DNA from: a virus
Taxonomy: Duplodnaviria; Heunggongvirae; Uroviricota; Caudoviricetes
Virus record (IMG/VR): IMGVR_UViG_2711768002_000013
Reading direction: 5' to 3' (one strand)
Length of the DNA: 53,159 nucleotides
Shown here: positions 1 through 1,983 of the stretch, one piece after another
How positions within the stretch are numbered: the first letter of the stretch is position 1
Layout of the letters: the number at the start of each line of letters is the position of its first letter
Translations under genes and position numbers: made by a program
Notes under the pieces: model-generated
Told to the model about the DNA's origin: nothing
Databases searched by the model: none
What the model saw: only the letters and a program-made list of their open reading frames with translations

Positions 1-1236
1 CTACGATAACCGCGCATTCAACATGGCTACCTGTTCGTCGTTCATGTCATCAATCCACATACCGTAAATTTCATACACCATCTGCGCAGTTTCATGCCCC
101 ATCTGGCTGGCTATAAACGCCGGGTTCGCTCCTGCCGTCAACAGCCAGCAGGCAAAAGTATGCCGCGTATGGTACGGATTACGGCGGCGAATACCAGCAC
201 GTTTTACTGCTGCATTCCATCTCGCACCCAAACTGCTTACCGAGTAATAAGGTTTCTGTTTTCCGTTACACACTCTGGGCATGAAAACAAAATGCAGTTT
301 TTGCTTTTCGGTTCTGCCGTACTCCCGATGATAAAAAGTGATTTCGCTTTTGCGATGATGCCCGGTCAGTTTGTATTGCTCCTTCAGTGCTTCAAGAGCA
401 GGCTGCAGTAGTGTTACCGTCCGGATCCCCGCATTTGTTTTTGGGGGACCGAACATATCCAGTATCGTCAGGTTTCTTCTGACATTCACAACTCCCTTCT
501 CGAAATCCACATCCTCCCACGCCAGAGCAGCCAGTTCCCCGTGACGAAGCCCGGAGTATACGGCAAATTTCCACAAGTTCTGGCTCTGTCCTTTTTCACT
601 TTCCATTAATGCATTGAATTCTGTTTTAGATAACGGGTCAGGCTTTATTCTGTTTCTCTGTAATTTCTTTACTCCTTCAAATGGTTTGGTTGATATAAAT
701 CCCGACTGATACGCAAAACGTAACAACGAACAGAGCAGGGCGATATAGTTATCAACTGTGCGCACGGTTCTTCCTTTTTTGTTGGATCTTGGATTATCCA
801 GGTAAAGCGTTTCTCCATGCAGCAGTTCATTCCGGTAGTTTAAGATATCGCTATAACGAATATGCGATATCGGAGTACTCTCACAAATTATTATCCTGAG
901 TGTTTTTAATTGTGATTTCGTTTTCTTCATTGTGTTTGTTGTTAACTCTGTTTCTTTAATTTTTGTCCAGATATCACAAAGCTCCCCGAACGTTTTTATG
1001 ACCCTCGTTGTCACCATTTTTGCCCCAGTGCTGGACTGGGGAAAACGTCTTAAATACTCAAACTCACCGGAATTGATTTCATGAACTATCAACGCTCTTA
1101 AATTCCCGGCTTTTTTAATGTTACTGTTAGTAACCTCCCAGCCTTTCAATGTTTCCCGACATCGTTTTCCTCGAAACATGAACCAGATGCGAATGTATTT
1201 ACCTCGAATCTCGACACCTGTTGGTAATTTAGACAT
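1..1236 (-). CDS. intR: Tyrosine integrase, Rac IntR-like
   Basis: 411-aa ORF; C-terminal tyrosine-recombinase catalytic region (..NPYHTRHTFA.., ..GHETAQMVYEIY..); size and N-terminus match what I recall of Rac IntR; xis-like gene immediately upstream on the same strand. Confidence 0.85.
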   Translation of the reverse strand: MSKLPTGVEIRGKYIRIWFMFRGKRCRETLKGWEVTNSNIKKAGNLRALIVHEINSGEFEYLRRFPQSSTGAKMVTTRVIKTFGELCDIWTKIKETELTTNTMKKTKSQLKTLRIIICESTPISHIRYSDILNYRNELLHGETLYLDNPRSNKKGRTVRTVDNYIALLCSLLRFAYQSGFISTKPFEGVKKLQRNRIKPDPLSKTEFNALMESEKGQSQNLWKFAVYSGLRHGELAALAWEDVDFEKGVVNVRRNLTILDMFGPPKTNAGIRTVTLLQPALEALKEQYKLTGHHRKSEITFYHREYGRTEKQKLHFVFMPRVCNGKQKPYYSVSSLGARWNAAVKRAGIRRRNPYHTRHTFACWLLTAGANPAFIASQMGHETAQMVYEIYGMWIDDMNDEQVAMLNARLS

Positions 1237-1552: not shown

Positions 1553-1741
1553 TCACGAGGACTGAAGTTTCTCGCAATTAAAATTTATCAGTTTTACTTT
1601 CTGCTCTCTGGAAACGCCTGCTTCTTTTTTACCTGAGAGCATTTTTTCGCATTCTGATTTCGTTAGTTTAGATTTTGAATATCTTGTCCAGTTAGTAGGA
1701 GTGCCACCTTCCTTTTCAATAGTGGCGGTAATTTTATACAT
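1553..1741 (-). CDS. ydaC: Small DUF1187-like protein, YdaC-like
   Basis: 62-aa ORF starting MYKITATIEKEG; its ATG overlaps the ancestral TAA of the ralR frame; the listed 86-aa ORF is an upstream in-frame extension. Confidence 0.5.
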   Translation of the reverse strand: MYKITATIEKEGGTPTNWTRYSKSKLTKSECEKMLSGKKEAGVSREQKVKLINFNCEKLQSS

Positions 1742-1928
1742 GAACACCTCCATTATTATTTCCAGTGGTTCGTTTATTTCATCGTTCGAGTGCTTCTTTT
1801 TCACTTCCACCATAACCGGTTCGGGATTCGCATCCGTTACACTTCGCTCGGTAATATCCTGAAATGGCTTTCACCGTTACTGATGGACAACCACAAAATG
1901 GACATGGTTTAACATTGTCATATCTCAT
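1734..1928 (-). pseudogene. ralR: ralR-like restriction-alleviation / type I toxin gene with premature TGA
   Basis: Manual translation from ATG 1928: MRYDNVKPCPFCGCPSVTVKAISGYYRAKCNGCESRTGYGGSEKEALER then TGA at 1779..1781; frame stays open for 14 more codons (NKRTTGNNNGGVHV) to TAA 1734..1736 overlapping the ydaC start; intact length would be 64 aa. Confidence 0.5.
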
Positions 1929-1983
1929 AATTTTTCTCATAAAAATATTTCAAGTTGGCGGTGCATTACACCGCCAGGCTGAA

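What the first reader, a model, noticed from the sequence alone, without database searches (positions are those of the whole stretch)
1734..1928. ralR-like gene interrupted by an in-frame TGA
Seen: a Cys-rich ORF (CPFCGC...CNGC) stops at TGA 1779..1781 after 49 codons, yet the frame continues for 14 codons to a TAA that overlaps the start of the next gene, the typical coupled arrangement. Established: RalR of Rac is a ~64-aa restriction-alleviation protein and a DNase toxin of a type I toxin-antitoxin pair. Inference: a single TGG-to-TGA nonsense change truncates the toxin; together with the lom and stf frameshifts this suggests early prophage decay, or sequencing error.
Basis: partly seen in the sequence, partly recalled or inferred. 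Interest (0 to 1): 0.45.

Follow-up and report, generated by a model that had tools for sequence, protein, structure and literature searches.

The report
Common nonsense allele of toxin RalR
The Rac-type prophage toxin gene ralR here carries a real, inherited Trp50-to-stop mutation found in about 310 complete E. coli genomes; it removes the most conserved motif of the protein, so the toxin is probably dead while its antitoxin RNA RalA is intact, which is ordinary gene decay.

Summary
On the minus strand, ralR (ATG 1928) runs 49 codons to TGA at 1781..1779. The frame then stays open for 14 codons (NKRTTGNNNGGVHV) to TAA 1736..1734, which overlaps the ATG of ydaC/DUF1187. K-12 has TGG (Trp50) at this position.

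It is not a sequencing error. The exact 61-mer around the TGA occurs in 310 of 5426 complete E. coli genomes, including O157:H7, O26, O111, O103 and dog and human isolates. The six carriers I sampled share one prophage haplotype at the ttcA site. The allele therefore predates this prophage copy.

It very probably inactivates the toxin:
- W50, N51 and R53 are as invariant as the four zinc-binding cysteines in 80 distant Lar-family proteins, and none of those proteins ends before position 54.
- Published mutagenesis found that changes at residues 49, 51 and 52 lower toxicity, and that K52Q has no DNase activity.

The antitoxin sRNA RalA (1557..1735, +) and its 16-nt pairing site are intact. NCBI still names the 49-aa product RalR rather than flagging a pseudogene.

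Low-level UGA readthrough by tRNA-Trp would rebuild the exact wild-type protein. This is untested.

Interest is low: this is a known system with a common null or leaky allele.

The parts
1779..1928 (-). Truncated ralR (lar) coding sequence: 49 codons plus TGA. An in-frame upstream ATG at 1940 would give a 53-aa form.
   Evidence: PGAP annotates the same interval in strain E2865 as RalR, WP_001443846.1.
1779..1781 (-). Nonsense codon TGA replacing TGG (Trp50). On the + strand it reads tca, and base 1779 is T where intact alleles have C.
1734..1778 (-). Orphaned 3' end of ancestral ralR: 14 codons (NKRTTGNNNGGVHV) plus TAA. It also carries the GGAGG ribosome-binding site (1751..1747) and the start of ydaC.
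   Evidence: It is identical to K-12 across this stretch.
1791..1806 (-). 16-nt site in ralR mRNA (AAGUGAAAAAGAAGCA) that pairs with RalA. It lies 9 nt upstream of the TGA.
   Evidence: Repeat found. Identical to K-12. Defined experimentally in PMC4041452.
1557..1735 (+). RalA antitoxin sRNA, full length (179/179 model positions), antisense to ydaC and convergent with ralR.
   Evidence: Rfam RF02694, 225.1 bits (gathering score 170), E = 1e-54.
1619..1634 (+). 16-nt element of RalA (UGCUUCUUUUUUACCU) complementary to ralR mRNA.
   Evidence: PMC4041452.
1553..1741 (-). ydaC / DUF1187 (rcbA) ORF, 62 aa. Its ATG overlaps the ancestral ralR stop.
   Evidence: Pfam PF06688, 132 bits. PGAP annotation in carriers.

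Best explanation
This is the RalR/RalA type I toxin-antitoxin locus of a Rac-type lambdoid prophage integrated at ttcA. It carries a real, inherited nonsense allele, ralR W50* (TGG>TGA).

In the six carriers sampled the mutation sits on one prophage haplotype, which fits a single origin. That haplotype is now spread across many E. coli backgrounds.

Translation ends after R49. The product keeps the four-cysteine zinc ribbon but loses the last turn of its only helix and the invariant WN(K/R)R motif. The truncated protein is therefore most likely non-toxic and DNase-dead.

The antitoxin sRNA RalA and its pairing site remain intact, leaving an effectively orphan antitoxin. ydaC downstream has its own ribosome-binding site.

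Shown: the allele, its frequency, its haplotype, motif conservation and RalA integrity. Inferred: loss of toxin activity.
For: Allele and frequency:
- The allele is shown.
- The 61-mer with TGA is 100% identical in 310 complete genomes. The CGA-TGG version is in 123 and the K-12 AGA-TGG version in 1142.
- The full 501 bp are identical in O26, O111 and O103 strains and in clinical isolates.
- The exact 49-aa protein is on at least 1000 contigs.

Single haplotype:
- Six carriers from four countries show 0 differences from the window over 1553-1940 and 0-2 in recT. K-12-type loci show 4-5 and 3-13.
- The chromosomal TtcA protein allele differs among carriers.

Loss of function:
- W50 is present in 80/80, N51 in 79/80 and R53 in 80/80 distant Lar-family representatives. 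None ends before position 54.
- The invariant alignment columns are C9, F11, C12, C30, C33, W50, N51 and R53.
- The AlphaFold model has its helix at 43-52 and a disordered tail at 54-64.
- Pfam coverage drops from profile positions 2-58 to 2-52 of 58.
- Guo et al. 2014 (PMC4041452) report that changes at residues 14, 37, 39, 49, 51 and 52 reduce toxicity and that purified K52Q does not cut DNA.

Antitoxin intact.
Against: - No experiment has tested the 49-aa product. It keeps the zinc ribbon and could retain some activity or binding.
- PGAP and NCBIfam still score it as RalR (126.9 bits against a cutoff of 113) and do not mark it as a pseudogene.
- The conservation test used hits found with a profile that contains the WNxR motif, so the sample is somewhat biased toward proteins that have it.
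- UGA is leaky in E. coli, so some full-length protein is probably still made.
- 'Single origin' rests on six sampled carriers, not on a full phylogeny.
Confidence: 0.78

Rival explanations
1. Leaky-stop attenuation. The UGA is read through at a low rate by Trp-tRNA(Trp). Because the lost codon was Trp, readthrough rebuilds exactly wild-type 64-aa RalR. The locus would then be a down-tuned toxin-antitoxin pair, heterogeneous between cells, rather than a dead one.
For: - The 14 downstream codons and the TAA are untouched.
- UGA readthrough in E. coli K-12 reporters is about 2% at 37 C and about 4% at 25 C. It is set by competition between Trp-tRNA(Trp) and RF2 (PMC10570021).
- RalA and its target site are kept.
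Against: - The intact tail is equally explained by the youth of the allele and by the ydaC ribosome-binding site and start that lie in it.
- Nothing downstream of the UGA looks like a stimulatory structure (z = 0.22).
- Readthrough figures come from K-12 reporters, not from this sequence context or these strains.
- There is no sign that selection maintains the arrangement.
Confidence: 0.12
2. The 49-aa protein is still functional, as a toxin, as the restriction-alleviation factor Lar, or in a new role. On this reading the shorter form is simply a valid natural isoform.
For: - It passes the curated RalR and Lar model cutoffs.
- It is annotated as a normal gene in RefSeq.
- It is common: 310 genomes.
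- It keeps all four cysteines.
Against: - It lacks W50, N51 and R53, which are invariant in the family.
- It lacks K52, whose substitution abolishes DNase activity, and changes at 49, 51 and 52 lower toxicity (PMC4041452).
- No distant homologue is this short.
- Being common is expected for a neutral or beneficial toxin-null allele on a spreading prophage.
Confidence: 0.08
3. Sequencing or assembly error at base 1779.
For: The window also contains frameshifted lom and stf.
Against: - Identical sequence occurs in 310 finished genomes from many laboratories and platforms and in three deposited prophage records.
- The lom and stf lesions are 62-bp and 49-bp deletions, not base-call errors.
Confidence: 0.01
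4. Programmed recoding of UGA as selenocysteine.
For: There is an in-frame TGA with an open frame after it.
Against: - The 3' sequence is identical to that of TGG alleles, so no SECIS element has co-evolved.
- The fold of the downstream RNA is no better than shuffled sequence (-8.3 kcal/mol, z = 0.22).
- The position is an invariant Trp in the family.
Confidence: 0.01

Closest known systems
RalR/RalA type I toxin-antitoxin system of the E. coli K-12 Rac prophage (Guo et al. 2014, PMC4041452); RalR is the same protein as Lar (Pfam PF14354, NCBIfam NF007260)
   Same: - Same locus and gene order: intR-xisR-ydaC/RalA-ralR-recT-recE at ttcA.
- 48 of 49 translated codons are identical in DNA, and all 49 in protein.
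- RalA is full length.
- The 16-nt pairing elements are identical.
   Different: Codon 50 is TGA instead of TGG, so the product lacks residues 50-64, including WNKR. Minor differences are the synonymous R49 change, one T fewer in the run upstream of the start, and a 62-aa rather than 69-aa ydaC.
Inactivated chromosomal type I toxins, for example the hok-like genes of E. coli K-12, which Guo et al. cite as mostly inactive
   Same: A toxin gene on a chromosome or prophage is disabled by mutation while the locus and its RNA partner persist.
   Different: Here the lesion is a single nonsense codon at a Trp position rather than an IS insertion or rearrangement. The toxin is a soluble zinc-ribbon DNase, not a membrane peptide. 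The comparison rests on the literature and was not tested here.
Natural leaky UGA stops decoded by tRNA-Trp in E. coli (reporter and nudL readthrough, PMC10570021)
   Same: A UGA codon is followed by an open in-frame extension, and Trp is the residue inserted on readthrough.
   Different: There is no evidence that readthrough happens or matters at this site. It is a mutational stop inside a conserved domain, not a native gene end.

Membership tests
RalR / Lar family (PF14354, TIGR03655, NF007260) | Sequence match above the curated cutoffs | tested here: met
   For the 49-aa product: PF14354 39 bits (cutoff 28.6); NF007260 126.9 bits (cutoff 113) and TIGR03655 40.3 bits (cutoff 39.6).
RalR / Lar family (PF14354, TIGR03655, NF007260) | Four-cysteine zinc ribbon (CPFCG ... 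CxxC) | tested here: met
   C9, C12, C30 and C33 are present. These columns are invariant in the family.
RalR / Lar family (PF14354, TIGR03655, NF007260) | C-terminal helix ending in the invariant W-N-(K/R)-R motif | tested here: not met
   A stop replaces W50. The motif is present in 80/80 (W), 79/80 (N) and 80/80 (R) of distant members. It is still encoded in frame but lies after the stop.
RalR / Lar family (PF14354, TIGR03655, NF007260) | Domain complete (profile covered to its end) | tested here: not met
NF007260 positions 1-49 of 64.
RalR / Lar family (PF14354, TIGR03655, NF007260) | DNase activity and toxicity on overexpression, or restriction alleviation | not testable with these tools
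   Only indirect evidence: K52Q is inactive and changes at residues 49, 51 and 52 reduce toxicity in K-12 RalR (PMC4041452).
RalR/RalA type I toxin-antitoxin locus | Adjacent, convergently transcribed RalA sRNA | tested here: met
   RF02694, 225.1 bits, positions 1-179 of 179, at 1557..1735 on the + strand.
RalR/RalA type I toxin-antitoxin locus | 16-nt complementarity between RalA and the ralR coding region (11 contiguous pairs) | tested here: met
   1619-1634 pairs with 1791-1806. Both are identical to K-12 and match the elements defined in PMC4041452.
RalR/RalA type I toxin-antitoxin locus | A functional toxin that RalA and Hfq must repress | not testable with these tools
   Predicted not met because of the truncation. 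Needs a toxicity assay.
Selenocysteine or programmed UGA recoding | Stable stem-loop (SECIS-like) just 3' of the UGA, co-evolved with the UGA | tested here: not met
   Minimum free energy -8.3 kcal/mol, z = 0.22 against shuffles. The 3' sequence is identical to TGG alleles.

The most novel reading that the evidence does not exclude
The TGA at a Trp codon may act as a natural 'dimmer' rather than a kill switch. tRNA-Trp readthrough of UGA would rebuild exactly wild-type RalR at a few percent of normal output, unevenly between cells. Carriers would then keep a weak, stochastic DNase toxin still under RalA control, and this attenuated state, not a null, would be what spread with the prophage.
Probability: 0.07. 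Interest if true: 0.5.

Novelty: already known. Interest (0 to 1): 0.12.

Why it matters
- Annotation: RefSeq names the 49-aa product as the RalR toxin without a pseudogene flag. Surveys that count toxin-antitoxin systems in pathogenic E. coli (O157:H7, O26, O111, O103) therefore probably over-count a functional RalR by roughly one locus in six.
- Biology: this is one more case of a prophage toxin being disarmed while its RNA antitoxin persists. The disarmed version has still spread across host backgrounds.
- There is nothing here that would surprise a specialist.

Tried and rejected
- Sequencing error: rejected by the genome census.
- Selenocysteine or structured recoding signal: rejected.
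- Solved-structure relatives, sought to explain the role of the C-terminus: no sequence hit in the PDB. Foldseek gave only weak generic zinc-ribbon matches such as eIF2-beta, ELOF1 and RPC10-like proteins, all with E above 0.05. These are uninformative about DNase chemistry.
- O145:H28 'CGA TGG' allele as the direct ancestor: only partly valid. It matches the 61-mer, but it sits on a divergent prophage backbone with a different RecT family and 29-32 differences in 388 bp.
- Literature search for a description of this truncated allele: none found.
- Phage records carrying the allele: these are prophages predicted in clinical isolates, not sequenced virions. They say nothing about inducibility.
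- The word-indexed protein search returned only close relatives. The exhaustive profile search was needed to reach distant ones.

Full report
**Observation**

The region lies at the left end of a lambdoid prophage. The gene order, all on the minus strand, is intR (1..1236), xisR, ydaC/DUF1187, ralR, recT (from 1984) and recE (to 5386).

Translating 1940..1734 on the minus strand gives MRKIMRYDNVKPCPFCGCPSVTVKAISGYYRAKCNGCESRTGYGGSEKEALER*NKRTTGNNNGGVHV*. Counted from the K-12 start (ATG 1928), this is:
- 49 codons, then TGA at 1781..1779;
- 14 more in-frame codons;
- TAA at 1736..1734, overlapping the ydaC ATG (1741..1739).

**Identity**

- The 49-aa product matches Pfam Lar_restr_allev (PF14354).
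- It matches the NCBIfam RalR equivalog NF007260 at 126.9 bits against a cutoff of 113.
- The downstream ORF is DUF1187.
- Rfam finds a full-length RalA antitoxin sRNA at 1557..1735 on the + strand (225 bits against a gathering score of 170).
- The two 16-nt elements through which RalA pairs with ralR mRNA are present at 1619-1634 and 1791-1806. They are identical to those of K-12 and fit the elements defined by Guo et al. 2014 (PMC4041452).
- In the mRNA the TGA lies 9 nt downstream of the pairing site, so it does not touch it.

**The lesion**

Against K-12 MG1655 the coding sequence differs only by AGA>CGA (R49, synonymous) and TGG>TGA (W50stop). The 14 orphaned codons are unchanged. They also contain the GGAGG ribosome-binding site (1751..1747) and the start of ydaC, read directly.

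**Not an error, and not private to this copy**

Counts in 5426 complete E. coli genomes for the 61-mer centred on the codon:

| Allele | Genomes at 100% identity |
|---|---|
| CGA-TGA (this window) | 310 |
| CGA-TGG | 123 |
| AGA-TGG (K-12 type) | 1142 |

- About 1872 genomes have the locus, so roughly one locus in six carries the stop.
- Carriers include O157:H7, O26, O111 and O103 strains and unrelated dog and human isolates.
- The exact 49-aa protein is recorded on at least 1000 contigs.
- PGAP annotates it as RalR (WP_001443846.1), not as a pseudogene.

Six carriers from the USA, South Korea, China and Algeria were compared with the window:
- 0 differences across 1553-1940 and 0-2 in recT;
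- K-12-type loci differ at 4-5 and 3-13 positions over the same segments.

The carriers' chromosomal TtcA proteins are of two different alleles. The TGA therefore sits on one prophage haplotype that occurs in different host backgrounds. This fits a single origin followed by spread with the prophage or by recombination. It rests on a small sample, not on a phylogeny.

**Consequence for the protein**

- An exhaustive profile search found 2391 family members.
- Among 80 single-domain representatives from clusters below 50% identity, aligned to K-12 RalR, W50 is present in 80/80, N51 in 79/80, K/R52 in 62/80 and R53 in 80/80. None ends before position 54.
- A second alignment gives C9, F11, C12, C30, C33, W50, N51 and R53 as the only invariant columns.
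- Close relatives in Salmonella and Citrobacter keep RWN(K/R)R while the tail beyond it varies.
- An AlphaFold model of an intact homologue (pLDDT 78) has a beta-hairpin (17-22, 25-30), a single helix at 43-52 and a disordered tail at 54-64. The stop therefore removes the last helical turn and the conserved motif.
- Guo et al. report that random mutations lowering toxicity mapped to residues 14, 37, 39, 49, 51 and 52, and that purified K52Q did not cut DNA.

Taken together, loss of toxin and DNase activity is the most likely outcome. This is an inference; nobody appears to have tested this allele. One caveat applies to the conservation sample: it was collected with a profile that includes the motif.

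**Rivals**

- Sequencing error is excluded by the census.
- Selenocysteine recoding is excluded. The downstream RNA folds no better than shuffled sequence and is identical to TGG alleles.
- A still-functional short isoform cannot be formally excluded, but it conflicts with the invariance and the mutational data.
- The most interesting remaining possibility is leakiness. UGA is read by Trp-tRNA(Trp) in competition with RF2, at about 2-4% in K-12 reporters (PMC10570021). Here that would regenerate the exact wild-type protein. Whether it happens at this site and whether it matters is untested.

**Relation to 'prophage decay'**

- lom (44051-44588) and stf (44647-47432) are indeed out of frame in this window.
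- Against strain A38 the causes are a 62-bp deletion near 44355 and a 49-bp deletion near 45562.
- No complete genome matches window 44000-46100, which contains both, better than 99.5% in three pieces.

These look like lesions specific to this copy or to a rare lineage. The ralR stop is an old, widely shared allele found next to intact int, xis, recT and recE. The three lesions should not be read as one decay episode.

**Verdict**

This is a known system (RalR/RalA of Rac-type prophages) carrying a common, already catalogued but functionally uncharacterised nonsense allele. It is very probably a toxin-null with an orphan antitoxin. Interest is low. The practical point is that databases label the truncated product as a normal RalR toxin.

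Noticed in passing
window 44051-44588 (lom), near 44355: lom is split into two ORFs by a 62-bp deletion relative to the intact lom of E. coli A38 (NZ_CP028738.1). It is a real deletion, not a homopolymer slip. No complete genome in the collection matched the surrounding stretch (44000-46100) at 100%.
   Followed up: partly
window 44647-47432 (stf), near 45562: The side tail fibre gene is frameshifted by a 49-bp deletion inside the Ala/Ser-rich repeat region relative to strain A38. After the deletion the first ORF runs on in a wrong, Pro/Arg-rich frame.
   Followed up: partly
database proteins P0040 and P0043 (E. coli); corresponds to window 1619-1634 and 1791-1806: Some E. coli genomes encode RalR-YdaC fusion proteins (...GGSEKEA|GVSREQKVK...). 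The junction is what a deletion between the two 16-nt direct repeats that also mediate RalA pairing would give. This would be another independent way the toxin gets destroyed.
   Followed up: no
database proteins P0031 and P0034: Other lesions hit the same part of RalR. One is a W50S substitution (a cluster of 26 member sequences). The other is a frameshift after T54. Together they suggest recurrent loss or alteration of the C-terminal motif.
   Followed up: no
window 1553-1741 (ydaC/DUF1187) and base 1555: K-12 ydaC (rcbA) is 69 aa because of one base change at the position equivalent to window 1555. This window, O145:H28 RM12581 and strain H9 all have a TGA there, giving 62 aa. Between this window and O145:H28, 4 of the 6 changed ydaC codons are synonymous. 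That hints the ORF is translated, although Guo et al. 2014 concluded it makes no protein. Every such change also alters RalA.
   Followed up: partly
window 1-1236 (intR): The integrase gene differs at 9 positions from the six other TGA carriers sampled, although the adjacent xis-ydaC-ralR segment is identical. This indicates a mosaic or recombinant left end.
   Followed up: no
window 1941-1950 (T run upstream of ralR): There is one T fewer than in K-12 in the T run just upstream of the alternative ATG at 1940. The effect on ralR expression is unknown.
   Followed up: no
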